A stretch of 64,000 bases of DNA from Lingula anatina (taxonomy: Eukaryota; Animalia; Brachiopoda), in contig CM120642.1 in NCBI GenBank assembly GCA_051362555.1, positions 868,001-932,000 on the forward strand, written 5' to 3'. This document shows, one piece after another, positions 1 through 63,018 of the stretch. The translations under genes and the position numbers were made by a program. Each line of letters begins with the position of its first letter. Position 1 is the first letter of the stretch. Below the pieces are notes generated by a model. The model had not been told where the DNA came from. It was given only the letters and a program-made list of their open reading frames with translations, and ran no database searches.

Positions 1-1237
1 GTATGAAAAATTTCCCATTTTTGTATGGATATTGCTTTACCTGGTATATTGAATACCTCATAAAATTAGATTTTTGTTTTCTGTAAGAATTCTGAAGTGA
101 ATTTACATTTTTGGATCGTTGGCAAATAGCATATTTTTCTATTAGATAAATATAAGCTTCCTCTGATCAGGAGAATTTTAATTACTGCGGAATCTGGACT
201 AACCTAGCCTGAGATGGCATGCTTATCCTGGTAAGATAAATCCTGGTCTCATGAGGCCATGCCGTCAGTACGAGCATAGGCCCTTTTTTGTCGTCTTTCG
301 GAAGTAGGCATATATTATTTCCTGCAATGTTATTTTGTGTTGATGTTGAAGAAATAATAACTTTTCTCAATGCTTGTTCCCGAATCAAAAGTTTTCAGCC
401 CTTCTGTGATGAAGGTGAGGGTGACAAGTATGGAGGGGGTGGACTGGTTAATGGACGTCCCGCCGGATAGCACGATAGACAGGATAAAGGTATCGGGTTC
501 TCTTAATTAAGTTAAAAGAAATGACATGATTTTCATTGAAACTGAAAGTAAAAAGCGAATGTTATGTAGTTCTTTCAAGTGCAACTTACGTTCTACATTT
601 TAATGTTTCTTCTTTTCAAATCAGAGTACTCAAATTTGCTATGATCCAGCTACTAGTAAGCTCTTTGAAGATGCATACATTCATGAGTAGTGTTATCATC
701 ATTGCATTATTTTCAGATAATTTTAAATAAAATTATGAACGTGGAGTCTGAAGATATTTTGACCAAGGATTCAGCTGATGCCATCGTACTGGAACTCTTT
801 ATCTTGCTTGCACACTCCCATAAATTGCTGCTCCCTCACTTACTGTAAAAGAAAACAGAAACAGTATCAAGAAGAAACACACAGTTGCAGAGCAGCTCAC
901 ATTCATTTGTGGTGTGCCTAAATTGCACAGTACAGCACAACACAGCAGAATACACTTGAAAAAATGAGGCCAGTTGCAATTAAACAAAGGAAATGGTCAA
1001 CTCCAACAAAATAGGTTGACATGAAAGAGAAATATATTACTAGGAAATCAGTGTTGTTGATCGATGCAACTTAACAATATTTTACTAACAGCTGGACTTT
1101 TTTAAGTGTATTGTGAAATGTTGTGCTGTATTGCACAATTTAGCCCCCCCCCCCCTCATTTGTGTGTTTCGTTCTTGACATTTGCCATGGTAGAAAATGA
1201 AGCAGTTCTATTTAAATTTAGTTTGTGTAACTTTCAG

Positions 1238-3456
1238 ATTATGGCTAGCAGTCATTTCTACACTCCAGCTGCTGGGATGAAGGCATCTACATATCACAAG
1301 TTAATCCTGGTGAGATCTTTGTATAGGTTACCAGTTAATATAACTTTCAGATCATGGCTAGCAGTCATTTCTACACTCCAGCTGCTGGGATGAAGGCTTC
1401 TACATATCACAAGTTAATCCTGGTGAGATCTTTGTATAGGTTACCAGTTAATATAACTTTCAGATCATGGCTAGCAGTCATTTCTACACTCCAGCTGCTG
1501 GGATGAAGGCATCTACATATCACAAGTTAATCCTGGTGAGATCTTTGTATAGGTTACCAGTTAATATAACTTTCAGATCATGGCTAGCAGTCATTTCTAC
1601 ACTCCAGCTGCTGGGATGAAGGCATCTACATATCACAAGTTAATCCTGGTGAGATCTTTGTATAGGTTACCAGTTAATATAACTTTCAGATCATGGCTAG
1701 CAGTCATTTCTACACTCCAGCTGCTGGGATGAAGGCATCCACATATCACAAGTTAATCCTGGTGAGATCTTTGTATAGGTTACCAGTTAATATAACTTTC
1801 AGATCATGGCTAGCAGTCATTTCTACACTCCAGCTGCTGGGATGAAGGCATCTACATATCACAAGTTAATCCTGGTGAGATCTTTGTATAGGTTACCAGT
1901 TAATATAACTTTCAGATCATGGCTAGCAGTCATTTCTACACTCCAGCTGCTGGGATGAAGGCATCTACATATCACAAGTTAATCCTGGTGAGATCTTTGT
2001 ATAGGTTACCAGTTAATATAACTTTCAGATCATGGCTAGCAGTCATTTCTACACTCCAGCTGCTGGGATGAAGGCATCCACATATCACAAGTTAATCCTG
2101 GTGAGATCTTTGTATAGGTTACCAGTTAATATAACTTTCAGATCATGGCTAGCAGTCATTTCTACACTCCAGCTGCTGGGATGAAGGCATCCACATATCA
2201 CAAGTTAATCCTGGTGAGATCTTTGTATAGGTTACCAGTTAATATAACTTTCAGATCATGGCTAGCAGTCATTTCTACACTCCAGCTGCTGGGATGAAGG
2301 CATCCACATATCACAAGTTAATCCTGGTGAGATCTTTGTATAGGTTACCAGTTAATATAACTTTCAGATCATGGCTAGCAGTCATTTCTACACTCCAGCT
2401 GCTGGGATGAAGGCATCCACATATCACAAGTTAATCCTGGTGAGATCTTTGTATAGGTTACCAGTTAATATAACTTTCAGATCATGGCTAGCAGTCATTT
2501 CTACACTCCAGCTGCTGGGATGAAGGCATCTACATATCACAAGTTAATCCTGGTGAGATCTTTGTATAGGTTACCAGTTAATATAACTTTCAGATCATGG
2601 CTAGCAGTCATTTCTACACTCCAGCTGCTGGGATGAAGGCATCCACATATCACAAGTTAATCCTGGTGAGATCTTTGTATAGGTTACCAGTTAATATAAC
2701 TTTCAGATCATGGCTAGCAGTCATTTCTACACTCCAGCTGCTGGGATGAAGGCATCCACATATCACAAGTTAATCCTGGTGAGATCTTTGTATAGGTTAC
2801 CAGTTAATATAACTTTCAGATCATGGCTAGCAGTCATTTCTACACTCCAGCTGCTGGGATGAAGGCATCCACATATCACAAGTTAATCCTGGTGAGATCT
2901 TTGTATAGGTTACCAGTTAATATAACTTTCAGATCATGGCTAGCAGTCATTTCTACACTCCAGCTGCTGGGATGAAGGCATCTACATATCACAAGTTAAT
3001 CCTGGTGAGATCTTTGTATAGGTTACCAGTTAATATAACTTTCAGATCATGGCTAGCAGTCATTTCTACACTCCAGCTGCTGGGATGAAGGCATCCACAT
3101 ATCACAAGTTAATCCTGGTGAGATCTTTGTATAGGTTACCAGTTAATATAACTTTCAGATCATGGCTAGCAGTCATTTCTACACTCCAGCTGCTGGGATG
3201 AAGGCTTCCACATATCACAAGTTAATCCTGGTGAGATCTTTGTATAGGTTACCAGTTAATATAACTTTCAGATCATGGCTAGCAGTCATTTCTACACTCC
3301 AGCTGCTGGGATGAAGGCTTCCACATATCACAAGTTAATCCTGGTGAGATCTTTGTATAGGTTACCAGTTAATATAACTTTCAGATCATGGCTAGCAGTC
3401 ATTTCTACACTCCAGCTGTTGGGATGAAGGCATCCACATATCACAAGTTAATCCTG
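1238..3456 (+). repeat. 113-bp tandem array (19 full units plus a terminal copy) made of a UBAC1 exon 5' fragment and a GT-AG spacer
   Basis: Unit = ATCATGGCTAGC...AAGTTAATCCTG (72 nt, IMASSHFYTPAAGMKASTYHKLIL) + GTGAGATCTTTGTATAGGTTACCAGTTAATATAACTTTCAG (41 nt). Copies start at 1238+113n up to 3385, and the last copy continues into the complete UBAC1 exon. Confidence 0.97.
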
Positions 3457-5488
3457 GTCAGGTCTCAACAAACACTAAATGATGACAACACGGCGGCTCA
3501 GGAAGGACTTCAGGACGGAGGTAGACTTTGTTACTGGTATAGGGTACATGGTATTCCCACATGCTGTTGAAATGTATAGCCCCATTCAGAACAAAGGGGA
3601 CAAATTAGTCCAAGGGTCAAATATGGCAAACTCACTTGAATACTTCCCACGGATTAAATCTATTCACTGTGTATCAGCGGATTAGACAGCAAACTTTGTA
3701 GTGGGTCGCCATATTTGACCCTCGGACTTGTTAGTCTCCTATTCTGAATAAGGCCTATGAGGCAGTAGGGTGCACTTGGTATATGCTGTTGAAATACAAG
3801 TATTAAGAAAAAGTAAACTTGGGAATATTTGGCACGGTATGCTGACCAGACTGACAGTATGCTGCAATAGTTGTAATATGCTAAATGGCATTGTGTACGT
3901 GCATGATGCCATTTAAAATGTTAGTGACATTGCATCTGTTTTCAAAATGCCCAAAGTGAGTTTTTTCCCAAAAAGTTTGGAAAATACTTCTTCTTCCGAG
4001 AAATATACTAGTATAATGTAAGGTAACTTTCACTGTAGATGAGCTGCTGCTGGTCAAGAAGAGGCTTCAGCCACCTGTATTTGAAGAGCAGTCAAAGGTA
4101 GACACAGAAATATATCATAAATATACCTACAACTGTACAAGGTGATAATATTCAATACTCTCCATCAATATGGGCATTTTTACAATCCTGGGCTCCTTTT
4201 TTTCCCACCAAGGGTCAAAAATAGAAGTCATTATTGTGTTGATATTTGTACTTTTCTTGAAAGTATAGACCTGAAGGGTATAAGAAATGACAATCCCGAG
4301 ATAAAACCTTGTGTATGTATAAAGATATGATTATTTGAATTTTGAAAATCATTTTTTTAATTTTCATAAGCTAAACCTTGAAGTGTGTGACTTTTATGAT
4401 AATTTAAGGCATTGATCTCCAAGAAACCACTTAGTTTTACTCAGAGAGTATTGCTCTGTTATGTATTTGGAAAAAAAATGGATGAAAATATCCAAAATTT
4501 GACGAATCAATGATATTTTGTAATTTTCCTGTTTCAGTATTAAATGTGACTCCATGAAGTTTTTTATTCTGAGATATTCTGAGGACTTCTGTACTTCACT
4601 TTACCTTGCATTAGTTCTTTATGTTATGCTTCATGATTGTGTAAAATATTATTTTGCAGGGACATGTGTGCTAATTGCAGTGTCATGTTAAAATAAATGT
4701 CCTTTCCGAAACATCCCTGTTTCGGAAAGGACATTTTTTTTAACATTTATGATATTGTTTTATTTTATTGTAGTATTTGAGTTTATAAGTCTATTGTAGT
4801 ATTTGAGTTTATAAGTCTATGAATAACTGGGCAAAATAGGTGGAAGCTGAACTAAAATTGAAGTCTTTTTATTACATTTTGTGCTTGTTTTGTCTATTCT
4901 GTACTAGTAATTTGGTACTGGAATTTTATTTTATTAAATATTGATTCTGAGATATATTCCAGGTATTCTTTACGCCATTACACCTTATTCCAGTTTCTTT
5001 TGTTACAGTTCATAGCTGTATAAAATATTATTTGACAATGTCAGATTTACCAACAGTAAAGACATGTTTAAAAATATGTCCTTTTAGACATGTCCTTGTT
5101 TCAGAATGGACATTACTTTAACATTTATGAAATTGCCTTAAGATCTCATAGTATGTTGGTTTATAAGGTACAGCAATCATTGGACAAAATATGAGTTAAC
5201 TAGATTAAAACTGAACTGTTTTTATTACATTAATTGGTCATTTTGGATAGTTTTTGATTCTTTTTTGAAATGTTACTCCATTAGTATTTGATCATGATAT
5301 AAAACAGAGTCTTCTACACTCCATTATACCCTATTCTACTTCCTTTTGTTACAGCTTATAGCTGTATAAAATATTATTTGACAAGGTCAGGTTTAAATTT
5401 AGTAATTACATTTTTAAATATGTCCTTTTAGGCATGTCCTGTGTTTCGGAATGGACATTTATTTAACATTTACGAAATTGCTTAAATG

Positions 5489-5577
<89 letters not shown>

Positions 5578-8500
5578 TATCATGATGTATGTATATATTA
5601 TAAATAATCACAGGAAGTTAATTATAACCTGTGTCTGCCTGCAAGCGCCTCTGTAAACCGTGCCAGTGAACTGACTCTCGCAACTTTAACGTGTAGCCTC
5701 ATAACTATTTTCAAATACTTTTATGTACATCATAAGCAATATTTCAAGTAAGCTATATTATTCAAAATTATATTCTACATAAATTTGATGTGCTTCTCAT
5801 CATCCTCTTCCTCATGAATAATAAACAGATGAGCAGACCAAAGAGTAAACAACTGTTTTAGACAATGTGTTAAAAATGTCCTTTCCAATACAAAGCATCC
5901 AAATTGCCTATATTTCTATTTATACTGATATAATCTTTTCAATTAATTGTTAATTTAACTTTGAAATACATGAACTTTGGGAAAATATGCAATGGAAGTT
6001 CTAGTAGATCCAAAGAAAAGATGCTGACTCGCAAAAATTTTTTTTTTTGTTGAAGATATATATAGAAATGTAAAAAGATGCCATTGAAGAAATGTTTTTC
6101 TATTATTTTTATGTCATATGCATGATGCTCTAACAGTAATTTGCTCATGTCAAGTGAAACATACAGCATTAAAGACAAAATTTTCTCTATTTATAACATT
6201 GGCAATGTAAAGGTACTTTGTTTCGGAATGGACAATTTTTAACAAGCATCTCAAAAAAGGCCACAGTTAAATGGGTTTCTGTGCACTGGGGTTTTCTTAT
6301 ATAAAAATAAATGTCACATGTCCTGGGCTTTAGAGAAATATATATTGTTACAGGCTAGGTGTCAACATGTTCTTTTTATGTAAGAGAAACCCAATGTTTC
6401 GGAATGGACAAATTTAACGGAAAAACACGGTAGGGTTATTTTGCACTCCATGTCAAGCTCCAGAATCATCGTGCAGATTTCATTATTTGATACAAACAAT
6501 ACCAATACATCCAAATAATGATTAGGATGATTAATTATACTGTATGTTTTATGACATGTTTTCTGAAAGTAATTTATTTTTGTTTCGGAATGGACATTTC
6601 GTTTAACGGAAATACCAGCATGCCATTAAAAGACTTTTTTTCTAGGATACACCTCTCTCCTGTTAATATTTAAACTTTTTTGCTTCCACCATACTACTGA
6701 GCGTTTTATAATCCAAAAAAATGCCATGTCAAACACTGTTCTATTTTATTTCAGATTGCTTTTTATTTCATATGACTAAAACGGGAAAATTTTTTGGTCA
6801 TTTTTCGGGCTTTGCTTTAGCATAACTTTGGACTCGGTGGTGATATTTGGTTTCTATTTTCAGTGTTTATCTTCACTTACACCATTCTCTAACATAGTGA
6901 TAAAAGAATTATTTGATGATATGTATGTAATTTGTTAATTAGCAATATGTGGGAAAATCTGAAAAGTGCCCAGGATTGTAAAAATGCCCATATTTGGATG
7001 ATTCAAATGAAAGTGTGCTTTGATATACAGTAAATTGCCATCATCTCAGACAGAGAAATAATAGTGCATGATGTCATACAAGAATAGAAAAGTTAGAGAA
7101 TCTGCATGAAACGTTGTTTACTCCAGTATCCTCAATATATAAATTTTATGGTTATTTTTGAGACTACAGGATAACTGGATTTGTTTTATAAATGAGTAGT
7201 CCTCATAACATTTCCTTGAAGTTATTTCCAGAAGGGTCATAACATAAAGTGGGATGGCAATAAAAATGTGTATTTCTCTTCTAGAAGGCAGACCAGAGAC
7301 ACCGAGCTCCTACAAAAGAAGAGATCTGCGCGGCCACAGTAGCTGTCCCCATCAAGAACGCGGAGGCCGCGGCACCAGAGGAGGAGGAAGTGGTGGATGT
7401 AAGTGCCTCAAGTTGGTAATATAACTGATCTCATAACCAGACTGGGTATTAACACTGAATGCACTCCAGGCTGAAGGGAAAGCTAGATATTACAGGCCCT
7501 GCTTGGATATTGTAAACTCATCTATTTTTTACTGAGACACAAGATGTGCCCACATGTACATATTTTATCTGGTTCCCTTTGTCCAAATTTTATTTTTTAT
7601 TTATTTATTTTTTTAACAACTGGACCATTTGCACTGATGAATACATTCTTTCATCAAATTTCAAGCCTGGAACTCTTGTCGACACTGTTTATTGCTCACA
7701 ATTGTTTTTACTTTCAGTTTCACTCTGAAATGCGCAAGATATTGATTTCATTGATAGAAGCTGGACAGCGACTTCTCTGCCTGAATCCAAAAGCTGCCAA
7801 AATCTTCAGGGAAGCACAAGGTACATGTAATGATAGAAATAAAAAGGATGATTTATTGTGGTGATGTGTGAAAGCACAATATATATTGAAGGGGAAATAA
7901 AAATGGTGAAATTTTATGTATTTTGCTTGTGAAAATATTCACATATTTAAATCCATATATTTTGACTTCTTGGCATTTTCATGATGAAAGAACATGCTTG
8001 TGTTACTCCAGATTTAATGGACCAGCAGAATGACCCTGTAGTTCACGTAGAGCCAGGAACACTGAAGCAGCTGACAGAAATGGGGTTCCCAGAGAACAGA
8101 GCTACCAAAGCACTGATACTGAACAAGTTAGTATGGAAAAAAACGGCCTAGCAATGATATATATATTCAATTTTCACCACGGCACAGACTCCATGAGACC
8201 ATATTTAAGTCTCTGTGTTCACAAAATTTCCACATAGACTAATTGAGGCCGTTGACAAAGTTTTCACAAAGACGTTCATACTTAAGCCTGTTTTAGGAAG
8301 GTCATGGGTAAGTTGATGTTAACAAAATAAGTTTCAACTTCAGTTTGTTTCCCCTACCCCTACTTTGAAAGCCATTGTGTAATCCTTTAGTTTCTGAAAG
8401 CAGATCAAAGAGTGGTAATTGCATATATAGTAATTTCTCATCAAATGTGGCAACAACATAAAATACTTTCCACCCTGTGAATTTTGCCTGCCCCTGTTTC

Positions 8501-10876
8501 AGTATGTCCCCAGTCCAAGCCATGGAATGGTTACTAGAACATGATAGTGATGTAGACATTGACGAGCCATTGCCAGAAATGAAAGCTGCTCAGAAAAAGG
8601 TCCAGAAGGTTGGTTTCTCATAATTCTACTTCAGAGATTTTACCTCTGTATCAGCTAGTCATTTACGTGGTAATATAGATATATATATATAATTGCTTTG
8701 AAGTTTGGATTGATCAGTTGACCAAAATTTGTTTTGTGTGAAAGAATATTTCAGGTAACTCCTAACATTTTTGGCATGCACTTATGCATATCTATGCCAA
8801 CACACACGCATGTACACTCATACAAACCTACACATACACAGGGACACACTTGTTTAATCAAGAATAAATTGATCCTGTCGTTTACCATCAGTCCAGTTCT
8901 GATTCCTCCTGTGACAACCACTGAATTGTCCTCTGAAAAACTAAAAAATCTGAATATACACATGGTATATTTCTACAGGATACAGAAGCCACCAGCAAAG
9001 AGAAAACAGACTTCATGAAGCCTGCCAAGGTCTCAGAGATTCTAGACACATTCAAAGCTTATAAGAGAAGAGAGTTCAAGGCAAATCCAAGGGTGAGTTG
9101 ACCTATTTCTTACAGGATAAGGGATGGAAGTCTTTTTGCTTTATCGTGAAATCTGGATATTTGACTGTTGTATTTAGGATTTTCAAAGGTTCACTATCAC
9201 TTTCATCTTTGAGGGATAGATAGATCCAACATGGGTTATTACTTACAGTGGGCTATTTTTTATCAATATTTGTATGAAAAAATAGGTTGTAGATGGGGAC
9301 TTGATGATTACTTAAAGTAAGCAATTTTCATCAATATTTTTGTCAAAGATTTAGGTTTTAAATGGGCAGATATATAGTTAATTTCTGACTTGGTATTAAC
9401 AGAAATCTTTTAATGAATGGAAAACATGAATATTTTTCCCAAGTTTCAAAAAAGAAAAAAAAATCCTGTTGTTTGAAGCAATGCACTTGTGCCAAGTTCA
9501 TGTGAATTGTAGAATTGAAAAATAATTAATTTTTCACAGATTTTGTCATGTTAAGGATATCATAGTGTGGATTTTCAGACCAAACTTTTCTATAAAAAAC
9601 ATTTTCTTACATTCATGAACCATTGCTTACAACTGGAAAATCTCAGAAGCTTTGAAGGATAAAACTATAAGTTTGAGACATTTAAGAATGTGTGGAGAAA
9701 ACATTTTTCATAAAGTTTGAAGAAATCAGTAAACCTCATGTATTCACAAGGATAATGTCTAGTCCTTAAAAGATGTGTGTGTGTGTGTGAGTGTGTGTGT
9801 TATATGTAAGTAAAACTTGGATATGACATATTTCAGGCATTGAGAAATCTCATGGAGATGGGTTTTCCTGAGACAGAAGTTGTGGATGCTCTGCGAGTGT
9901 GTCAGAATAATCAGGATGCAGCAGTAAGTTTATCATCATGAACATAAATGATAATAATAATGGTGATGATGATGATGAACTTGAATGTTAAGTATATACA
10001 GTTTAACACTGCAATCACTTTCTCTCCAATGGTGCTTTTCATGAAAATTTTGATAGAAAAAAATGAAGTTTGCTATTTTGACTTAACTGCTTACTGGTAG
10101 CTCATTATTTGGATACTGATAGTCTTAGTCAACATTTTTAAGCGTAAAGATGAAATCTATATACAGTCAAATTTAAATCCAAAACAACTGCTATATTTTA
10201 TACTAGGCTCAAGAGAATTGTTAATGAATTTGATTCAAAGTGAATAATTGTTTTATTCTTTCAGAGTTCTTATTTTAAAATCTCTAACATGGATGGTATA
10301 TTTTTCTTTTTTTGATGAAACTTAATTTCTTAGTTAAAAAATCATAATATTTTACTTCAAATTTTGTTTAGTGTGAGTGGTTGCTAGGAGACAGACGGCC
10401 ACAGGCTGAAGATTTAGAAGTTGGTTTGAACCCCGAAAGTTCTGTGTACAAGGCTATCATGGCTAACCCTGTGGTACAACTGGGGTTAAATAACCCCAGA
10501 AGTATATTAGGTAAAGGGCATTAAGCCATTTTTGATAACTTTTTCTGACATTTTTTCATATCAATTGTCTTGTATCATGTTTATTTTCTCTCTCTCTCTT
10601 TCTCCCTCCCTCCCTCTCTCTCTCTCTCTCAGTTTGATATATTTTAATTAAGCTGACTTTTTACTTTTTTCCATCTATTATCATGTTAAAATCACACCAT
10701 TTCTCTATTTGATTTCAGCATTTCTCAACATGTTAGAGAATCCTGCCAGCACCAATCATTGGCTGAATGATGCTGACACAGGACCCATGTTAATCCAGAT
10801 AACACGGATATACCACGCAGAGAAACACTCTGGGAACGGCGCGCAAGCCCCTGCTGCAAGCGGTCCTGGTAGCTGA
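3385..10876 (+). CDS. UBAC1: Ubiquitin-associated domain-containing protein 1 (UBAC1/KPC2; UBL-UBA-UBA-STI1), spliced, 5'-partial
   Basis: Exons with AG/GT boundaries and matching phases: 3385-3520, 4039-4097, 7285-7398, 7718-7820, 8012-8126, 8503-8608, 8979-9092, 9837-9923, 10372-10510, 10719-10876 (TGA). Total 1131 nt. The translation contains YHKLIL...DELLLVKKR (UBL), [59 protein letters not shown] (UBA1), [33 protein letters not shown] (UBA2) and NPVVQLGLNNPR...WLNDADTGPMLIQITRIY, all closely matching human UBAC1 as I recall it. The start-codon exon was not found in the window. Confidence 0.95.
3576..3758. mobile_element. Foldback MITE-like element in a UBAC1 intron
   Basis: Imperfect terminal inverted repeats of about 60 bp: ATAGCCCCATTCAGAA...GTCCAAGGGTCAAATATGGC versus GCCATATTTGACCCTCGGAC...TTCTGAATAAGGCCTAT. 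Confidence 0.7.
4172..6989. mobile_element. ~2.8-kb non-autonomous TIR DNA transposon in a UBAC1 intron
   Basis: Perfect inverted repeat AATATGGGCATTTTTACAATCCTGGGC (4167-4193) / GCCCAGGATTGTAAAAATGCCCATATT (6968-6994). Flanks fit a TA or ATAT target duplication. The interior carries the repeated motif TGTTTCGGAATGGACA and degenerate ~370-bp subrepeats, with no long ORF. Confidence 0.8.
5492..5574. repeat. Compound (TA)n(GA)n microsatellite
   Basis: Directly visible. Confidence 0.95.
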
Positions 10877-11449
10877 CTATATGTATAAGCTATGGGTGAC
10901 TGTGTTGACTCATTTTATTAAAAAAACAACAACAAAAAAAAAGGCTATTGACTTGTGTTTAACACAAATGTTCTTTTCTTATAGTCTGGTTATACTGTTT
11001 TATTAAAGCTAGACTTTCAAATGGACAGAATTGTTATAAGAAGATTTAGTTGAAATTAGATTTCATTACTTCATGCAGAAGTAATTTCAAGGATTCAGCT
11101 GGCTGACTCCAAAGCAGACCTTACATGCTTACTTGATAAATACTTTGTTATCAACTAGAAAAATATTTACAAGAGCATGATGTTTTACCTTGTCCTGAAT
11201 GTTCTCTGTTGCCATGCCCATGTGTGCTACTCAAAAATTGTCTGAATCCCATTGGAATCATCTAAGATATCCCTAAGTCTCGTGAGGTTTTGTGAGATTT
11301 GGAGAATGGGTTCAGAAATAATGGCAGAATAGCAAGTGTGGTGTAGCATTGTATTAAAGATTATCTCATCTATCAAGGATATTTTTGTTTTTGTATTTCT
11401 CTTAAATTCTGTAAAATTACAGTTTAGAGCACTTCAGTGCATATTCACC

Positions 11450-16249: not shown

Positions 16250-18258
16250 CAAACTACAATGATACGAGTTCATTTCCATTTTGGCACTTTTTTTACACAA
16301 TACAAGATAACAGGTTTACCACCATTTTTATATAATCAACTAGCAATATTGTCAAGACGCAGAAATTGTCAAACAACCCATTTTACATATCTAGTAAATT
16401 CAATAATGAGACTGTTTACATGCCTGACAATCAAATCTGAGGAAAACCACTTATATACAAATAAAAGCTGAAGTCCCTCAAAACTCAACCAATCAATCTT
16501 ATTTTTAAATTTGATTTGTATATAGATAACATTGATCACTCTTGTGAGTTTAATGACAACAGGCCTATCGGTTCTCCCTGAAATGTGCTTACAGTGTTAC
16601 TAATATGCTTTTACTAATAATCATCAGTTCTGTGAGTTTCATGAAAACAGGCTTTAAGTTATTGGTTCTCCCTGAAATGTGCTTACAGTGTTACATATAT
16701 GCTGAAAAAAAAAAAAAAAAAAAACAGCATAACATTTGAAAGAAAAGGGCCTGGTCATGCTGATTTTCAATCTTGATCATTCTTTTTAATTTACTAATAA
16801 TCATCAGTTCTGTGAGTTTCATGAAAACAGGCTTATTGGTTCTCCTTGAAATATGTTAACAGTGTTGCATGTACACTGAAAAAAGGAGAAAAAATGCAAA
16901 ACTTTTGAAAATAATCACCCCATTTCCTCCATTTTGAGACACTGTATTACACAGTAAATGATAACATGTTTACCGTCATATTTATATAATCAACTAGCAA
17001 TGTTGTAAAGATGCAGACAATTTCAGAAAAACACTAACATATTTACATATCTAGTTAATTCAATAACGAAACTGTCAACATGCCTGACAATCAAATCTGA
17101 GGAAAACCACTTATATACAAATAAAAGCTGAAGTCCCTCAGAACTCAACCAATCTATCTTATTTTTAAATTTGATTTGTATATAGATAACATTGATCACT
17201 CTTGTGAGTTTAATGACAACAGGCCTATCGGTTCTCCCAGAAATGTGCTTACAGTGTTACTTATATGCTGAAAAAAAAACAGCATAACATTTGAAAGAAA
17301 AGGGCCTGGTCATGCTGATTTTCAATCTTGACCATTCTTTTACTCATAATAATCAGTTCTGTGTGTTTCATGAAAACAGGCTTTAAGTTATTGGTTCTTC
17401 CTGAAATGTGCTTACAGTGTTACTTATATGCTTAAAAAAAACAGCATAACATTTGAAAGAAAAGGGCCTAGTCATGCTGATTTTCAATGTTGACCATTCT
17501 TTTACTAATAATCATCAGTTCTGTGAGTTTCATGAAAACAGGCTTATTGGTTCTCCTTGAAATGTGCTTACAGTGTTACATATATGCTGAAAAAAACCAG
17601 CATAACATTTGAAAGAAAAGGGCCTGGTCATGCTGATTTTCAATCTTGATCATTCTTTTTAATTTACTAATAATCATCAGTTCTCTGAGTTTCATGAAAA
17701 CAGGCCTATTGGTTCTCCTTGAAGTGTGTTTACAGTGTTGCATGTACACTGAAAAAAGGAGAAAAAAATGCAAAACTTTTGAAAATAATCACCCCATTTC
17801 CTCCATTTTGAGACACTGTATTACACAGTACATGATAACATGTTTACCGTCATATTTATTTAATCAACTAGCAATGTTGTAAAGATGCAGAAAATTTCAG
17901 ACAAACACTAACATATTTACATATCTAGTTAGTTCAATAACGAAACTGTCAACATGCCTGACAATCAAATCTGAGGAAAACCACTTATATACAAATAAAA
18001 GCTGAAGTCCCTCAAAACTCAACCAATCAATCTTATTTTTAAACTTGATTTGTATATAGATAACATTGATTACTCCTGTGAGTTTCATGAAAACAGGCTT
18101 ATTGGTTCTCCCTGAAATGTGCTTACAGTGTTACTTATATGCTGAAAAAAAACAAAAACAGCATAACATTTGAAAGAAAAGGGCCTGGTCATGCTGATTT
18201 TCAATCTTGACCATTCTTTTACTTATAATCATCAGTTCTGTGAGTTTTATGAAAAGCC
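16250..18258 (+). repeat. Degenerate tandem array of ~160-175-bp satellite-like units with higher-order (~660-890 bp) periodicity
   Basis: Recurrent block CAGCATAACATTTGAAAGAAAAGGGCCTGGTCATGCTGATTTTCAATCTTGA (~16725, 17280, 17442, 17598, 18159) and recurrent block TGCCTGACAATCAAATCTGAGGAAAACCAC (~16421, 17081, 17955). Confidence 0.9.
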
Positions 18259-22529: not shown

Positions 22530-23914
22530 CACACACTGGACAAAAGAAGTGTCACCCCTACTGAGCCAATACTATGGGGGAGATAAATGACTGTGGAATG
22601 ATATGCTCCTGGTATCATTTTATTAACATCAAATTTCACAAAAAATCACAAAATGAGAACAAAATATACATTCTACCAAAATATGCAGTTTCAAGTCCAA
22701 AATTAGTACTTAGTGGCATAGCCACGTGACCTAATAATAGGTGCCAGTCTCCGAAGCAAGGTTTCATATAATTGTCTGATGCGTTCAGGGCTTATGCTGG
22801 CCCAAGCATGAAAAACTGAATACAACAGAGTTTCTCTGCTGGTTAGACGGGCATTTGTAAAAAGTTTTGACATATCATTCCACACATTTTCTATTATGTT
22901 TGCATCCGGACTCTGGGCAGGCCACATCAGCCTGCGAATGCCCTGTTGGTCAAACCAATCATCAACTGCTCTGGGCCTGTGACAAGGAGCATTGTCATCC
23001 TGGTGAACAAATGGATAATTCCTGTCACCAAACATGTTAGTAATAGATGGTAGCAAGCCTGACTCCAAAACATCGATATATTTCTAGTGATTCATGTTTC
23101 CATTAACCACTATCAATTCGCCCAAGCCATGGATGCTGATGCAGCCCCACACCATGATGAATATGCTGCTCCGGGTTCTAAAATTCAGTGCATGTGGTTC
23201 AAATGCTTTACCAGCAGTTTGCCAGCATAGTACCCGTCTGTCATCAGAGGTCAGACCAAAGCGACACTCATCAGAAAAATATATAGGACCAATTGTAATG
23301 AACTGTCCAGTTCCAGATCCTGTTGACCCTAGTTTACTCTACGTTGCCTGTTTTGTAACGATATAAGAGGTTTCAGTCTTGCTACCCTGCTGTACACTCT
23401 CTGAGCGCGTAACCGACGCCTTGCAATTTTCACAGACACATTCTTATGTGTGAAATTGTTCCACTGTGTTGTCAACTGACAAGCAGTGTCGAACTTAGAC
23501 AACCTGGACATCAAAATCAGTCGTCGGTCTTCACGGCCAGTATTTTTTCTTGGACGACCAATCAGAGGCAATTTGTCTCTTGATCCAGTGTTTCTATACC
23601 GAGACCAGACCCTCTGCATGGTTTTGACTGAACAATTCAATTGTATCGATATTCTGACATTGCTTATATTGCGCCTCTTCAGGTTAATAACTTGCACCTA
23701 TAACCGTTAGATAATTGCCTGTATCTTGCCATATTGGAGGAAGACAGGAATAACATTTGCTGTACATGTACAAGACCAACAATACAATTCAATGGTATAG
23801 CGGTTTTATACTAATTAGTCACATTATAAGTAGACCAGGCATTATAAGTACCCAAGATCTGCCTACTTTTATTACTCTGAGTTAGGGGGTGACACCTCTT
23901 TTGTCCAGTGTGTG
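22530..23914 (-). mobile_element. Tc1-family DNA transposon, full length but decayed
   Basis: 29-bp TIRs CACACACTGGACAAAAGAAGTGTCACCCC / GGGGTGACACCTCTTTTGTCCAGTGTGTG with one mismatch, TA on both sides, 1385 bp. Confidence 0.95.
22703..23732 (-). pseudogene. Tc1 transposase pseudogene (DD34E)
   Basis: Fragments across frames: HTH plus GRPRK (23329-23697), FSDECRF, and QDDNAPCH...WPAQSPDANIIENVW with 34 residues between D and E, ending in GYATKY. Frameshifts or stops occur after the ATG at 23732 and near 23329 and 23085. Confidence 0.93.
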
Positions 23915-33538: not shown

Positions 33539-33776
33539 TCACTAGATATTCACAGATATTTCTCTGGCTATTCACTAGATATTCACAGATATTTCTCTGG
33601 CTATTCACTAGATATTCACATATATTTCTCTGGCTATTCACTAGATATTCACAGATATTTCTCTGGCTATTCACTAGATATTCACAGATATTTCTCTGGC
33701 TATTCACTAGATATTCACAGATATTTCTCTGGCTATTCACTAGATATTCACGTATATTTCTCTGGCTATTCACTAG
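33539..33776. repeat. 33-bp minisatellite, about 7 copies
   Basis: Unit TCACTAGATATTCACAGATATTTCTCTGGCTAT. It accounts for the repetitive ORFs on both strands. Confidence 0.95.
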
Positions 33777-42555: not shown

Positions 42556-43814
42556 ATGAAATGCGGCCGACTATATTGGGGGTGGATCATCCTCGTGGCT
42601 TCGATGGTCATACGGACATGGGTCCACGGCATTGTGGGATCCTATGGCTCGTTTTTAGTGGTCTTCAGTCATCATTTCTCCTCAACGAAGATGCTGTTAC
42701 TAGGTGAGTGGGGTTTTTAGCAAAACAAGGCGTGTTTTCTGTGGCGATAAAAAACTTTAACGATATATTTAAGCTCACCTTTCCTTGTTATATTTGATGT
42801 GTCTGCTTTACTAAATACGTAGAAAAACAATGGTGACGTTTACTAGGAACTTGTTGACATATTTCTGTACACTCATTTACAAAAAGTGAAACATAGAGAA
42901 ATTGGTTTGTATTCGGTGCATTTGCTCATTACATTACAATCATTACAATGACGCACGGCAGTCAATTTGTACGAAGTATTTCTTTACTCCCATTTGCTAT
43001 AAACAAAATGTTTAAGGCAATAATCATATCTTAAGACGGAGGTTATCATGTCAGTTATTCGGTGATGTGCCAAGGTAAGCAACATGTTCTTCAACCTATA
43101 ACGGATCAACTCATCAGTTTTGAAACTAAACACTCATTTTTAACGAATGGAATAAGCACGCTTTTTTTCTTGCACGCGAAACGGACAGTTTCGTCCACTA
43201 TCCTACAAGAAAACAACACAAAAAGACTAAGGATATGATTAAAAACAAAGTTTTATATTTACTCCAGGGTGGATAGGAGCCACAACCTACGGCCTCGTGA
43301 ACGCGGGAACACCAATTCTACTGCTTCTCTACCGCCGTATCGGAGGCATGAGGACTGCTTTTATCGGGGTCTTCGTGGCGTCCCTGGGGCTGGCGCTCTC
43401 AGGGGTCGTAGACAACCCTGTGGCTATCTTCTTCACCTACGGTGTGATGACAGGCATGGGGATGTTGCTGATAAACATTCCGCCATTTTTCTTGCTGGAT
43501 ATGTACTTCCCGTTGGACAATAAGTATCATGTGCTCACCACTAGTATGCTGATGTGTACTTTACCCTTAGGTAAGATCTGATTGGTATAGATGTGCATAT
43601 AATTTTTAACAAAACTATTCTTTGTTACCCTTTATTTGTGATGTCCGTGAAAATCTTACCCATCAGTCCCAAAGGCGGCAAGTATTCGGAGCACAGAGTT
43701 CTGCAGCCAGTGGGCCTCTTCTGGTGTCCTGGCCAGTAGGTATTGGGAGATGCGTTGATGTGGGACATTGACTCTTTTTTTATCTGCCATGGAAACTGTT
43801 TGTGATGAGGAAAG

Positions 43815-43847
<33 letters not shown>

Positions 43848-44461
43848 TTAAGTGCATTTGGTGTAACGTGCAGGATTGCGTATGTACTCCTCGTTTATTG
43901 AACCATGCTCTTCTACACTGTGTCAACAAACCTCGTTGAGCTGCAGCATGTATTATTTAGATGTAAAACTAGTTTTTCGATTATATAACTGTTAATTAAT
44001 TAAAACTGCATGTTCTAATTGTTTCTTTAATAGCACTGAGGCTGATGAGCAGTACACGTAGGACAATTTTTTAGAAATAAACATTTTAATTTTATAGTAA
44101 TAAGAACCCTAAAAACATCGCGAAAGCCATTTACATCATTTGACCATCTTAAAACATCTAGAAAGGCATAAAAATATTAAAGCTAGGCAGTCTCTCACGG
44201 ATACTGCTTGGACAATCAATACTTTTCATCACGTAACATGAGATCGTTTTCCCGTTGCAGGTTCACTGGTTTTCAACCCGATTACAAGCCGCCTTATATC
44301 TGATATTGGCTGGAAGAATACTTTTGCCTTCTACGGGGTGGCCATATTTGTTCTTGGGTGTATATCAGCAGCTACATTTAGAGTTAAAAGAGAGGATGAT
44401 ATCGCACCGGAAGATAATGAAAAGACGTCCTTAACGGGTACGCTATCTTTATTATTGATAA

Positions 44462-44502
<41 letters not shown>

Positions 44503-46403
44503 AGCAACTGATAGGGAAATGCAGTTTCATTTTTTGATTTTACATAATTTCCCAAAACATGAATCGATATAATATAACATTCTGAATTCAAAATTTAGTT
44601 TCATTCGCCTTGGTAATTTTCAGCTCATTGCATTAGCTTACTTACTTATACAGTAATTTTGTTTGGTGTGACGGCATTTGTGTTTGGTGTGTTGAGACTA
44701 TTTCTATACAGTTAACTTACTTACTTCTATACCTTCGTGGCATATCACACGCAAAGAAAAAACTATACCGTTATGATTTCAGAAATGATGTTGTAATATC
44801 AAATTAATCGGATAGTTGAGGAATACAAGGGCTTATTATTAAGGATAATATGATTTATTTTCAGACGCGGAAGATGGTATAATTAAACCAAAGGAAGAGC
44901 CAGAAATCAGCAAAAAAGTACTTATTTTCCTTAGTATAATTTGGTTTTTTTGCAAACTTGCCAAAGCGACTGCTTATTTTGGACCATTGTTTATTATGGT
45001 AAGTTAGTTTTATGAACGTATAACACTCTATTTTGAAAAAAAATGTCCTTTTTGCTTTCACGTTTTTAATTTGTAAATGTAACACTTTAAAAATATAAAA
45101 ATACAAGTTTTCCCCTGGTTTCGTATTTTTATTTGACCATAGTATCAACTGTTTAACTATTTTGTCTTACAATACCATTCTGTCTGTTTTCTAGGTAAAG
45201 CACTTAGAAACTTTAGGCTACACACGTGACCAAGGTGCTGTTGCCATGACAATCATTTCAAGCTCTGAACTTTTTGGTCGTTTGGTAACTTGCGTGTTCG
45301 GAGATAAATACGCCAAAGGAAAATTCATTTACTTGTACGCCATATGTACGTTCCTGCTAGCGATAGAGAACTTTGGAGCAATATTTGCTACCACCTATAA
45401 TCAAGTTGTAATGTTTGGAGTAGGTAAGTCAACGGACCATTTCCTCTTCATGACTACTCTCTCTCTTTTTTTTTTTTACAACCCCGTCCTCCGACTACAT
45501 CTTCCGAACCGGAAAACTAAGTCAACATTTTTCCATTCGAAGAAATCGTCCGATCCTGTTGCTGAAATACTTGTATTAATGGTTAATGTCAGTGTATTTC
45601 TAAAACAATCACTCCAAGTCTGAAGTTGCACGTCTCTAGGAAATATCATTTCTTACAAATCGTTTAAATTTCACCAATTTCATTACATTATTCTATTAAC
45701 TAGCCGCAGGTCTAACAGGAGGTCCGGTAGTGGCCGGGGTGTTCACCACGTGTGCAGAGGTCCTAGATGGCCCCTTCGTCCACGAGCTGTTCACTATATG
45801 TCGGGTAGGACTGGGAAGTGGGATGATCTTAAGTGCCTTGATAGCAGGTGAGTGAGGGGGATTAGTGACCATGTTCTTGAAATGTATTTTAGAACGTATT
45901 TTAGAGTCTTTTTATATCTATCAAAGGCTAATTTTAGTATTACAAATGTTATATCCAACTTTTACTTAGAATAAGTGTAAAGAAATAAAGTATAATTAAA
46001 GGAAAATTCAGTGATTAAAAATTGCTAAACGGAGAAGTGTGTTATTGTGTGTGTGTGTATGTGTGTGTGTGTGAGTGTGTGTGAGTGTGTGTGTGAGAGA
46101 GAGAGAGAGAGGGGGGGGGGGGGGGTGGATTATTGGCCCTAATGTTAACTCATTCATTTTCTTTCTCTAGGTGCGATATACGACACGTACGGGTCCTATC
46201 ACTACGTGTTCGCGGCTAACGTGGGTATATTTCTGCTCAGCAGTTTACTCTACTCCAGTATAGCTCTGTTTAGGAACTTCTTCATTAGAAAACAGAGTAA
46301 TAAGTTACTGGAGCAGGCCATGCACAAAATGAACTATGGCGGCCAGGATGTGTCTGAGCCTCCCTTGCCTGGGAAAGAGGAGGAAGCAAAAGAAGACTGG
46401 TAA
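42556..46403 (+). CDS. Monocarboxylate transporter family (SLC16/MCT-like) MFS transporter, about 455 aa
   Basis: The ATG is in GCCACCATG context. Exons: 42556-42703, 43268-43570, 44261-44437, 44865-44998, 45195-45423, 45704 (or 45710)-45847, 46171-46403 (1368 nt, phases consistent). Motifs WGWIILVAS, GWIG, TYGVMTGMG, YF, IGWKNTF and GAIYDTYGSYHYVF are typical of SLC16, with multiple hydrophobic segments. Confidence 0.9.
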
Positions 46404-49400: not shown

Positions 49401-50879
49401 TTTCTGTTTTTATTAATAGCTGCTATACATTAGTTATGCAAATCTCAATTTCTGAAGTGCTTGCATATCACAACTTTTAAACGTGAAGATAAAAGTACAT
49501 TTTTCACCATATCACTTGTTGACAGCTGAGTAAGATTGCTTGTTTACGTTGTGCTAGTCAATTTTGTTATTTTCATAATTGTCAATGTTATGAGGTGACA
49601 CGTGTGAACACGAATAATTTTGCTTGAATAAATGCGTTTCTTTCGGTAGTTTCTTTATTTCATCTAAAAGATCCAATTGCAAAAAGTAGTATTAATATGA
49701 ATTGTATATTCAGAACCTGCTATATACTCTATCTGAACTTTTGCTTTTTTAATTAAAATGTTTACTAATTAAAATCTTGTACAAGATGACAATAGCACTC
49801 GATGTCTCCAAGATGACTGCCCAGTTTATTCTTCCCGTTCATATTAAAAACTTGACATCTCCCCTTGGTTTATTCTTCACAACACAATAAATGCTATAAC
49901 CGCACAACCCTTTTTTCTTTTATGTAAATCGGAACCATTTTATAAACTGTTTTCTGAAAAAAAACCCTAATGTTATTCAAATCCCTTTTGCAGAGTGAGA
50001 AAGTTTATTCCTAGATTTTGACGCTAAACAACTATTTCAACTCGTGTACGTGTCATCTCCCCCACATGCGAAACCTAAAATCAAAAATAGAATGGGATGG
50101 AGCATAATTTTTCAAATCTACGAATGCACACTGTTCTGTTTTCGGAGAATCTTATTTTTTTTTCCATTATTCGAGTACACAAAACTTTGTCTGACTTGAC
50201 CTATATTGCTTTCTCAATATTATTGAATTTTAATTATATGTTAAATGTAAGAATCTGATAAAAGAAATAGAATACTTTTAAAAAATGTCCTACATTCCAC
50301 AGTCTCCATTGATTCATTAAAATCTTTCTCCTTCTTTCAAGTGTTCAAACCTTGAACAGCCCACATTTCTGAAAAATTCAATATATATCACAGTTATGAA
50401 GAGCAATATCTTGTGTATTATCCTTGACCTCGAGCCTAAACCATTCAAGTTTGTTAAATAGTTTGCGAGTGGACATTGTGATTAAGTTAAAGTTAATGTT
50501 GAAAAATCAGGTTTAGCTTGTCTGACCAAATCTATATATATATTTTTTTTCTTTTTTTTTGTAAAATACTAATCGGCTACATTTAAGGTGCATACACAAA
50601 ACGCTTGTATTTAGTTATCATATTAATGCCTTGTTTTAAAATACATGTTCATTTGCAGAATTTTATATAGCATTTTTCTATCATCTTTTTTTTTTCATTA
50701 TGTTCACCATGTATTTCTGTGATTGTAGTTTTGGCATAATAAAAACGTATTATAAATGAATTTTAGTTTGTCATGAGTAAAAATTATAGATCTACGACTG
50801 CATTGCTGTGTGTTTATTTGGGGTATGACAGCTTGGACACGTCCATGTAATGGGATAACAGGGTGAATGAATCCATTCT

Positions 50880-51200
50880 GGGAAAGTCCATTCCATTCAA
50901 GGGGTGACAGGTGGGGAGAGTCCATTGCCCTTAAGGGGTGGCAGGTGGGAAGAGTCCATTCCCTTAAAGGAGTGGCAGGTGGGAAGAGTTCATTCCCATC
51001 AAGGGGTGACAGGTGGGGAAAGTCCATTCCCACCAAGGGGTGACAGGTGGGGAGAGTCCATTCCCATCGAGGGGTGACAGGTGGGACGAGTTTATTCCTT
51101 TTCAGGGGTGACCAGGGAGACGAGTCCATTCTATTCGGGGATGACAGGTGGGATGAGTTCAATCGATTTGAGGGGTGACAGGTGGGTCAAGTCCATTTGA
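50880..51200. repeat. ~37-bp G-rich minisatellite, about 9 degenerate copies
   Basis: Unit approximately AGGGGTGACAGGTGGGGAGAGTCCATTCCCATCA. Confidence 0.9.
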
Positions 51201-57200: not shown

Positions 57201-57555
57201 TATTACACATGGAAAGGTTTTGGAGGCAAAATATCCAGGGCGTATTATGCAAATTAAATATGAGGATGTTGCAGCTAAACCTTTATACTGGAGCACAAAA
57301 ATATATAATTTTATTGGACAAAAACTACCACCTGTTGTAGAACACTGGATTCAGAGAGCGACGTCTTCCTCTGAAGAAAATGGAACTTACGGAACAAAAA
57401 GACAAAACTCTTCAAAAACAGCGCATAAGTGGGAGACAGAGATAGGTTTCGAAATGGCAGGAAAAGTTGATGCTGTATGTAAAACCGTTTTAGATCTTCT
57501 GGGATATGAACCATATTTAGATATTTATAATAAAAATAAAAGAAGTAATGTGTAA
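54270..57555 (+). CDS. Carbohydrate sulfotransferase (Gal/GlcNAc-6-O-sulfotransferase family, CHST1/3-like), about 382 aa
   Basis: Exons 54270-54396 (MERRKLGWVILICGVVSFEIAVLL, type II signal-anchor), 56104-56323 (5'-PSB TYVRSGSSLVGQLFNQ...FYEPL) and 56754-57555 (3'-PB KVIHLLRDPRAS, KYEDVA, C-terminal LLGY). Phases are consistent, 1149 nt. Confidence 0.92.
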
Positions 57556-62300: not shown

Positions 62301-62794
62301 CACGTCGTACTCTACGTCACCGCAGCATTCAATGTACTGCTGTCTGGGCCTGGTTCCACTGGCACAACATATATAAAAAGCTGGGTCATACACGACACCA
62401 TTACATCTGACGTAGTTGCCTCCATGGGTGCCGATCTGACCATCAGAACAGTACTGGAGATCGGTATTGTACACTGTTGGCCCGCAGCATGCAGCATATG
62501 GCGACTTGTTGTAGAGGTAGTTTTCGCAGCAAATCTTCTCGTTTGGATCGTACTTAACGTTTCCGCACGACGGCTGTGGGGTGGTCCCTATGGGATACAC
62601 CTTCCCGCCAACACATATGTGTGTGCTGGTGTCGTACATCTGGTTGCCGCAGCAGGCACGGTTCTGGCCGTAGTTGTAAACATTGCCGCTGCAGCACATT
62701 TGCTGCTGCGTGTTACACGGGCTGGAGCCGCAACATGTGTAGGATGGACTGGTCAAAGGCTGGTTGCCACAACAGTCCTCTCCATCGTGACAGC
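59328..62794 (-). CDS. Galaxin-like cysteine-rich (di-Cys repeat) secreted/matrix protein, main exon (over 1150 aa)
   Basis: A 3.4-kb open frame made of C-x-G-x2-Y-[DN]-P-x4-CC-G repeats typical of galaxin/usherin-like Cys-rich repeats. The frame extends upstream to a TTTTAG acceptor at 62795 (phase 1). Confidence 0.88.
59680..60600 (-). repeat. Coding tandem repeat, 159-bp (53-aa) unit, with alternating A/B variants
   Basis: CNNQPYNPATQICCGS[N/T]VYWKVQYDQCCVNSPYNSNTHECC[Q/L]GNIV repeated four times almost identically, flanked by more diverged copies. Confidence 0.93.
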
Positions 62795-63018
62795 CTAAAA
62801 CAATAAAGAGATCGATACATGGATTAATAACTATTCTTGCAGAGTTATTTTAGCTTTTGCCATTTTTTTTTTCAAAATGGACGTTTTATAAACAAGATTT
62901 CTATATCTATATTGACGCATGCAGATGTTTCGGTGTTTTCGGTGTTTTTTTTTCGGAGCAGTTCATAAGTCCACCGCGCATTAAACCCAGCACACACACA
63001 ACATCATTATAACGGTAC

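What the first reader, a model, noticed from the sequence alone, without database searches (positions are those of the whole stretch)
1238..3520. Twenty-copy array of in-frame exon cassettes inside UBAC1 (72-nt exon plus 41-nt GT-AG spacer)
Seen: each 113-bp unit has an acceptor (TAACTTTCAG), exactly 24 codons of the UBAC1 UBL-domain exon (phase 0-0), a good donor (CTG|GTGAGA) and a branch-like TTAAT in the spacer. Only the last copy lacks that donor (CTG GTCAGG) and reads on into the full exon. Unspliced read-through frameshifts to a stop (113 is not a multiple of 3), but joining any donor to any later acceptor keeps the frame. Inference: the locus could produce UBAC1 isoforms with a variable number of extra 24-aa segments in the UBL domain, which is the domain implicated in KPC1/proteasome interaction. 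Alternatively it could act as a splice decoy or NMD rheostat, or as a circRNA source. It may also be a snapshot of exon/intron birth by tandem duplication.
Basis: partly seen in the sequence, partly recalled or inferred. Interest (0 to 1): 0.85.

Follow-up and report, generated by a model that had tools for sequence, protein, structure and literature searches.

The report
Repeated splice acceptor in brachiopod UBAC1
A 113-base piece spanning an intron-exon border of a brachiopod UBAC1 gene is copied 20 times in a row, and the RNA reads found run straight through the copies without the proposed splicing, so this is likely a tolerated, variable-length repeat of a kind already known from lancelets and humans, not a source of new protein forms.

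Summary
The array is real: 20 copies, period exactly 113 bp, over the intron 1/exon 2 border of UBAC1 in the brachiopod Lingula anatina. Spacer DNA occurs in two DNA runs from different studies, at roughly 30 versus 4 spacers per diploid genome (rough depth estimate), so copy number likely varies. The proposed ladder of 72-nt cassettes was not seen. In two raw RNA runs 12 reads cross from the copy end into the 41-nt spacer unspliced, and no donor-to-acceptor joint is listed (threshold 3 reads per run). In two transcript assemblies, depth in the copy is fully explained by spacer plus normal exon tail. The 'donor' derives from exon sequence (first 9 spacer bases still read Val-Arg-Ser). Spacer-keeping RNA has a stop 51 codons in. 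Normal 416-residue mRNA most likely uses the last acceptor (inferred; not phased). This matches amphioxus 'mirage' minisatellites and human CBS 844ins68; the scan noted similar arrays in other genomes. Open points: the share of transcripts keeping the array (3-21% if donors carry 19 spacers, far more if few), synonymous-only variation among copies, and a public gene model that skips exons 2-3.

The parts
370..489 (+). UBAC1 coding exon 1 (40 codons from the first in-frame ATG), donor at 489/490
   Evidence: its last 20 residues are the N-terminus of P0001; aligns with homologue N-termini
490..1237 (+). Unique part of intron 1 (748 nt) ending in the original acceptor before copy 1
   Evidence: not covered by any read lay
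1228..3465 (+). Tandem array, 113-bp unit = 10 nt intron end + 72 nt exon start + 9 nt exon-like continuation + 22 nt of unclear source
1238..1309 (+). Copy 1 of the 72-nt exon start (private third-position T at 1240)
1310..1350 (+). First of 19 identical 41-nt GT..AG spacers; found unspliced in RNA
   Evidence: reads were laid on the last spacer, 3344-3384
3344..3384 (+). Last spacer; supplies the acceptor of the functional exon
3385..3520 (+). Copy 20 = complete exon 2 (136 nt), the only copy that leads to an open frame without new splicing
   Evidence: joint to exon 3 in 5, 8 and 7 reads of X10, X13, X16 and in contigs of X4, X5
4039..4097 (+). Exon 3 (59 nt), end of the UBL domain
7285..10877 (+). 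Exons 4-11 with two UBA domains, intact frame to the stop

Best explanation
This is a tandem repeat of the UBAC1 intron 1/exon 2 border whose copy number likely differs between animals, whose 41-nt spacers stay unspliced in the RNA reads found, and whose last copy likely supplies the acceptor for most normal mRNA. Origin (inferred): a piece running from the intron end to about base 81 of exon 2, probably from another allele of the exon, was duplicated with 22 nt of filler or diverged intron, then expanded and shuffled by unequal crossover or slippage. Processing: shown, sense RNA crosses the internal donor unspliced and exon 2 joins exon 3 normally; inferred, the internal donor is not used because donor and next branch site are too close (20-28 nt) and compete for the same stretch, so only copy 20 is defined as an exon together with the true donor at 3520. 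A minority of transcripts (inferred) keep part or all of the array, either by using an upstream acceptor or by slow removal of intron 1; they carry a stop 51 codons in and would be NMD targets.
For: Period, identity and frame. Unspliced joint 3456->3344 in 4 reads of X10 and 8 of 12 reads of X11, all on the sense strand; no 3456->3385 joint listed. Depth in the copy equals spacer plus tail: X4 134 versus 104+43, X5 19 versus 13+10. Two exon-tail alleles at equal depth in X4 (20.8 and 21.9). Spacer-to-flank depth 14-18 in X1 and 1.7-2.3 in X3; no spacer reads in X13 (about 9 expected at the X10 ratio) or X16 (about 4 expected). First 9 spacer bases are exon-like, and the A at 3462 is a standing exon allele in X13 (15 of 15) and X16 (7 of 7). 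Same anatomy as amphioxus BflGb6 mirage (PMC3087553, passages) and CBS 844ins68, where the distal acceptor is used (PMC2630376, PMC7490669, passages). Fly minimum donor-to-branch distance about 35 nt (PMC5762160, passage).
Against: Which acceptor exon 1 joins was not observed; no read or pair could be phased from exon 1 to the exon tail. Copy number in the RNA donors is unknown: with 19 spacers the array-keeping share is 3-21%, with about 2 spacers it is 25% to all transcripts. The internal donor matches the U1 consensus (recalled motif) as well as the gene's real donors (6 pairs plus 1 wobble, against 5-7), and a two-unit skip would give a 154-nt intron, so short length alone does not explain its silence. 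All 3 variable sites among copies 1-19 are synonymous (chance about 0.01). Raw-read depth is thin (6%, 6%, 6% and 25% of the runs read; the 12 reads are probably about 6 fragments). The tool warns that contig depth is no copy number.
Confidence: 0.68

Rival explanations
1. Leaky poison allele: upstream acceptors capture a large share of transcripts, the spacers stay in, the early stop triggers decay, and UBAC1 output falls as copy number rises.
For: Spacer-to-tail ratios 2.4, 1.3, 0.6 and 4 in X4, X5, X10, X11. In X4 the spacer has depth 104-114 while intron 2 (3528-3575) has none, so this RNA is not genomic DNA or fully unspliced precursor. Spacer acceptors resemble the original one (same last 10 nt, 10 versus 11 pyrimidines in -20..-4).
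Against: The array is present in 6 of the 8 runs laid plus the window, across 3 study codes, and the gene frame is intact; fly KPC2 nulls are male-sterile (PMC7802972, passages), so a strong loss allele should not be common (inference). Both tail alleles are equally deep in X4. Retained intron 1 explains the same reads and was not excluded.
Confidence: 0.15
2. The array weakens exon 2 recognition so that exons 2 and 3 (195 nt, in frame) are skipped together, giving a UBAC1 without most of its UBL domain.
For: The public model P0001 (XP_013418623.1) joins exon 1 directly to exon 4 and lacks the UBL Pfam hit; it equals the window's exon-skipped frame at 328 of 331 residues.
Against: A gap or collapse over the array in that other assembly would give the same model. 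Exon 2-3 joints are seen in X10, X13, X16 and in X4, X5 contigs. The exon 1-4 joint was not within either stretch laid, so it is untested.
Confidence: 0.08
3. One reading: internal donors are used in some tissue or stage and add in-frame 24-residue blocks to the UBL domain (or form circles).
For: Frame-neutral 72-nt units with a consensus-quality donor; only synonymous variants among copies and none in 19 spacers (joint chance about 0.0025 under random mutation). In the model of homologue P0015 the block is half a helix, a second helix and a strand (residues 41-64), so extra blocks could loop out (inference).
Against: No such joint listed in 6 of 6 RNA sets; copy-to-tail depth 0.8-3.2 where a full ladder predicts 20. 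The synonymous pattern is also expected if variants are exon alleles exchanged with the array: the T at 3435 occurs both in array copies and in a tail-linked functional copy in X4 (126.4 = 58.8+45.7+21.9). None of 24 homologues repeats the block. Worst case under the listing threshold is 4 unlisted reads against 12 (25%).
Confidence: 0.07
4. The array is an assembly artefact.
For: Near-identical units; X1 may be the sample behind the window; exact number 20 was not checked with long reads.
Against: The unit-to-unit junction is in raw reads of X10 and X11 and in contigs of X3, X4, X5; copies carry patterned variants.
Confidence: 0.02

Closest known systems
Amphioxus 'mirage' minisatellites (globin BflGb6; also Adh3, BflGb9, troponin C, PGBD5); PMC3087553 and PMC3902484, passages read
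   Same: Tandem copies of an intron 3' end plus the 5' part of exon 2; unit of similar size (150-160 bp in BflGb6); copy number differs between haplotypes; boundary copies differ from inner ones; regular splicing continues despite AG/GT signals in the units.
   Different: Brachiopod host; 20 almost identical copies; each unit is frame-neutral and ends in a consensus-quality donor; 22 nt of the unit have no local source; spacer-keeping RNA is readily seen here, whereas the papers report no aberrant mRNA.
Human CBS c.844_845ins68; PMC2630376 and PMC7490669, passages read
   Same: Duplication of an intron end plus exon start, with a few divergent bases; the distal acceptor is favoured and normal mRNA results.
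   Different: One extra copy, not 19; distal use is shown there and only inferred here.
Human F7 intron 7 37-bp VNTR (and CBS 31-bp VNTR); PMC1557585, abstract read
   Same: A variable minisatellite that reiterates a splice site whose extra copies are functional in principle but silent.
   Different: It repeats a donor and the most upstream site is used; here an acceptor is repeated and the last is the productive one.
Intron gain by tandem duplication in potato RdRp; PMC4974935, abstract and Results and Discussion read
   Same: Duplication across an intron/exon border; would-be new intron starts with about 10 formerly exonic bases holding a cryptic donor and ends with the parental acceptor.
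   Different: There 106 RNA reads show the new intron spliced; here the 41-nt would-be intron is seen only unspliced.

Membership tests
Mirage minisatellite | Head-to-tail repeats that span an exon-intron boundary | tested here: met
   10 nt intron end + 81 nt exon start in each unit
Mirage minisatellite | Length differs between haplotypes or individuals | tested here: met
   rough depth ratios 14-18 (X1) versus 1.7-2.3 (X3); contig depth is only a rough guide
Mirage minisatellite | Homogenised inner units, divergent boundary units | tested here: met
   inner copies differ at 0-1 sites; private variants in copy 1 (base 3) and copy 20 (base 35)
Mirage minisatellite | Regular splicing is not disturbed | tested here: inconclusive
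   exon 2-3 joints present, but spacer-keeping RNA is present too and the acceptor used by exon 1 was not phased
Mirage minisatellite | Somatic instability (reported for Adh3) | not testable with these tools
   needs single-animal long reads from several tissues
Intron gain by tandem duplication (Rogers model and potato variant) | Source of the new intron identified in the duplicated segment | tested here: inconclusive
   19 of 41 spacer bases trace to exon continuation and intron end; middle 22 nt match the intron-1 end at 10 of 22, as do 7% of random intron positions
Intron gain by tandem duplication (Rogers model and potato variant) | New intron is removed from mature RNA | tested here: not met
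   12 unspliced reads, no spliced joint listed; depth accounting leaves -12 and -4 for it
Intron gain by tandem duplication (Rogers model and potato variant) | Phylogeny showing absence in relatives | not tested
   no related genome held; 24 homologous proteins lack the repeat
Tandem cassette or mutually exclusive exon array | Junction reads for the duplicated exons | tested here: not met
   detection floor 3 reads per run
Tandem cassette or mutually exclusive exon array | Copies encode different peptides | tested here: not met
   copies 1-19 encode one identical peptide
UBAC1/KPC2 gene | N-terminal UBL and two UBA domains | tested here: met
   two UBA hits above cut-off; UBL_UBAC1 weak on exon 2 alone (E 0.029); alignment; identity to named record

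The most novel reading that the evidence does not exclude
The array is a natural dial on UBAC1: alleles with about 1, 3 or 20 competing acceptors send a copy-number-dependent share of transcripts into a 2.3-kb poison exon or into exon 2-3 skipping, while the frame-neutral 72-nt units with a good donor sit one step from becoming real cassette exons, so the population holds an allelic series that tests how acceptor number and a 41-nt spacing decide between silence, poison and exon birth.
Probability: 0.15. Interest if true: 0.55.

Novelty: new member of a known kind. Interest (0 to 1): 0.22.

Why it matters
As it stands it extends splice-border minisatellites to a brachiopod and gives a clean negative: frame-neutral units with good-looking splice signals are not enough to make cassette exons when the spacer is 41 nt. 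It also flags a public gene model that probably lacks its UBL domain at exactly this place. If copy number turned out to set UBAC1 dose or exon skipping, it would be a ready-made allelic series for acceptor competition and for the early steps of intron gain.

Tried and rejected
Whole genome: none held, so no genome-wide intron lengths, no search for the 22-nt filler beyond the window. Filler source inside the window: no match of 11 nt or more outside the array; 10 of 22 to the intron-1 end is not significant. Homologue search with exon 2 among longer proteins: 3 candidates, none scored (weak evidence). PDB with exon 2: nothing. Search of 1.84 billion representatives with exon 2: 3 hits; P0037 had 12 matched stretches but is a different repeat protein without a UBL hit, rejected; P0038 and P0039 are ordinary single-UBL homologues. 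RNA folding of two units: z -0.61, no special stability, although the lowest-energy fold pairs the donor region; not used as evidence. Run finder listed no RNA holder among indexed runs; I read X4 and X5 as RNA from their content. Genomic contamination as source of spacer reads: rejected for X10 and X11 (one strand only) and X4 (no intron 2), not for X5 (too shallow). Earlier findings by place: none.

Full report
Observation. The array is as described. Twenty copies start 113 bp apart without exception; Tandem Repeats Finder gives 1228-3465, 19.8 copies, 99% matches. Copies 1-19 encode the same 24 residues and are followed by an identical 41-nt GT..AG spacer; copy 20 continues to a donor at 3520. 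Variation among copies 1-19 is limited to bases 3, 48 and 51 of the 72, all third codon positions; copy 20 has one further change (3419, Ala to Val). Reading on from any of copies 1-19 without splicing reaches a stop after 51 codons.

Gene and organism. Exon 10372-10509 is 100% identical to P0001, named Lingula anatina UBAC1, XP_013418623.1. Exon 1 is in the window (370-489). Exon 1, copy 20 and nine further exons give an open frame of 416 residues, with two UBA hits above cut-off and a weak UBL hit on exon 2 alone. Exons 1-3 align end to end with the UBL region of 24 homologues, none of which repeats the block. In a model of homologue P0015 (mean pLDDT 67; 80-88 over residues 11-90) the block corresponds to residues 41-64: half of a helix, a second helix and a strand. 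P0001 itself joins exon 1 to exon 4, skipping exons 2 and 3 (195 nt, in frame), and differs from the window at 3 of 331 residues, so it comes from another haplotype; whether that skip is real or follows from an assembly gap could not be tested.

Anatomy of the unit. The spacer is a composite. Its first 9 bases match the continuation of exon 2 at 7 of 9 and still encode Val-Arg-Ser; 47 of 3628 other GT-starting 9-mers in the window match as well. One of the two differences (A at 3462) is a standing exon allele in runs X13 (15 of 15 reads) and X16 (7 of 7). Its last 10 bases are the end of intron 1. The middle 22 bases have no match of 11 or more elsewhere in the window and match the intron-1 end at 10 of 22 in register, which 7% of random intron positions also reach. 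So the duplicated piece is intron end plus about 81 exon bases, and the 'donor' is exon sequence that happens to start with GT. It is a good donor on paper: 6 matches and 1 wobble to the U1 consensus (recalled motif), against 5-7 matches for the ten real donors. No such figures for Lingula were available.

Is it real and variable? Of 20 runs listed I laid 8. In DNA contigs of X1 the spacer has depth 1469 against 83-104 for single-copy flank; in X3, from another study, 159 against 69-93. That is roughly 28-35 and 3-5 spacers per diploid genome. The tool warns that contig depth is no copy number and that X1 may be the window's own sample, so these are rough, but the sevenfold gap and the unit-to-unit junction in raw reads of X10 and X11 show a real array and likely a variable one. 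X13 and X16 have no spacer reads (about 9 and 4 expected at the lowest ratio seen elsewhere; as read pairs P0 0.012 and 0.155): those animals lack the array or remove it cleanly. X16 differs from the window at 8 third-position sites in exons 2-3 and may be a distant population.

What the RNA shows. With one unit as reference, a spliced cassette would appear as a joint 3456 to 3385 and an unspliced spacer as 3456 to 3344. Only the second is listed: 4 reads (4 starts) in X10 and 8 of 12 reads (6 starts) in X11, all from the sense strand. Joints need 3 reads to be listed, only 6-25% of each raw run was read, and the 12 reads are probably about 6 fragments; the worst case is 4 hidden reads against 12. 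X4 and X5 are marked 'DNA?' but behave as transcript assemblies (exon 2 runs into exon 3, no intron depth). There the depth inside the copy (134 and 19) is fully accounted for by what leaves into the spacer (104 and 13) and into the exon tail (43 and 10), leaving -12 and -4 for a ladder; contigs can drop rare paths, so this excludes a major form, not a rare one. Exon 2 to exon 3 splicing is normal (5, 8 and 7 reads in X10, X13, X16). In X4 two tail alleles are equally deep (20.8, 21.9), and the spacer RNA comes without intron 2, so it is neither genomic DNA nor wholly unspliced precursor. Per exon-2 transcript there are 2.4, 1.3, 0.6 and 4 spacers in X4, X5, X10, X11: 13%, 7%, 3% and 21% of transcripts if donors carry 19 spacers, but 25% to all if they carry about 2.

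Against my reading. All three variable sites in copies 1-19 are synonymous and the spacers have none; by chance 0.01, or 0.0025 with the spacer included. This would fit translation of the copies. It also fits exchange with functional exon alleles, which differ mostly at third positions: the T at 3435 sits in array copies and in a tail-linked copy in X4, and the spacer has no partner in single-copy alleles. The donor's silence is not fully explained by length, since a skip to the next-but-one acceptor would span 154 nt; overlap of donor and branch region is my inference.

Mechanism. Shown: array, unspliced spacers in sense RNA, normal exon 2-3 joint, early stop on read-through. Inferred: origin by duplication across the border, expansion by unequal exchange, use of the last acceptor for most mRNA, decay of array-keeping RNA. 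I put this at 0.68; a strongly leaky poison allele at 0.15; array-driven skipping of exons 2-3 at 0.08; a real cassette ladder at 0.07; artefact at 0.02.

Comparison. The term 'mirage' came to me from earlier findings of this scan, and I checked it in print: amphioxus BflGb6 has tandem copies of an intron 3' end plus the 5' part of exon 2, 6 and 3 units on two haplotypes, with regular splicing (PMC3087553, 8 passages; its supplementary alignment was not opened); PMC3902484 (5 passages) lists further cases. Human CBS 844ins68 duplicates 52 intron and 16 exon bases and the distal site is used (PMC7490669 and PMC2630376, passages). F7 intron 7 repeats a donor (PMC1557585, abstract). Potato RdRp is the case where such a duplication did become an intron, with 106 junction reads (PMC4974935, abstract and one section). 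Lingula heterozygosity is 1.6% (PMC4595640, passage); fly KPC2 nulls are viable but male-sterile (PMC7802972, passages). A search for at least three of Lingula, UBAC1, minisatellite, brachiopod found 0 papers; searches showed no brachiopod case in their listings. The library lacks most subscription papers.

Verdict. A new member of a known kind: a real, probably polymorphic splice-acceptor minisatellite whose frame-neutral units are not seen acting as cassettes. Interest 0.22; 0.55 if copy number proves to tune UBAC1 output (probability 0.15).

Noticed in passing
P0001 (XP_013418623.1) against window 370-7398: The public Lingula UBAC1 model starts at the ATG at 430 and skips exons 2-3, losing most of the UBL domain; either a real in-frame skip or a model broken by the array.
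   Followed up: partly
window 3419: The T in copy 20 (Ala to Val, the only non-synonymous change in the copies) is read as C in all reads of X10, X11, X13, X16 and all contigs listed: a private allele or an assembly error.
   Followed up: partly
window 3385-4097, run X16: Eight third-position differences in 195 exon bases, well above the published 1.6% heterozygosity: possibly a distant population or cryptic species under the same label.
   Followed up: no
window 3535 onward, run X3: One X3 haplotype leaves the window's intron 2 sequence at 3535, showing deeply diverged intron alleles at this locus.
   Followed up: no
window 911-1150 and 3595-3740: Two short elements with inverted arms (53 nt, 79%; 33 nt, 85%) flank the array; the second is highly repeated in the genome by read depth. 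MITE-like; no link to the array shown.
   Followed up: no
window 4167-6994: 33-nt inverted arms (94%) enclose 2.8 kb of intron 3 with six copies of a 21-nt motif and 345-379 bp internal repeats: likely a non-autonomous DNA transposon.
   Followed up: no
window 22703-23697 (-): Broken Tc1/mariner-like transposase remnant with a DDE_3 hit.
   Followed up: no
window 59328-62849 (-): Single 1173-codon frame with 12 galaxin-like Cys-rich stretches and an internal 159-bp tandem repeat; a possible shell or matrix protein.
   Followed up: no
window 56383-57555 (+) and 43243-45623 (+): A sulfotransferase frame (Pfam above cut-off) and exons of an MFS-type transporter (weak hit).
   Followed up: no
window 17203-17757, 33539-33776, 50879-51197: Further tandem arrays of 162, 33 and 34 bp, not checked for splice borders.
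   Followed up: no
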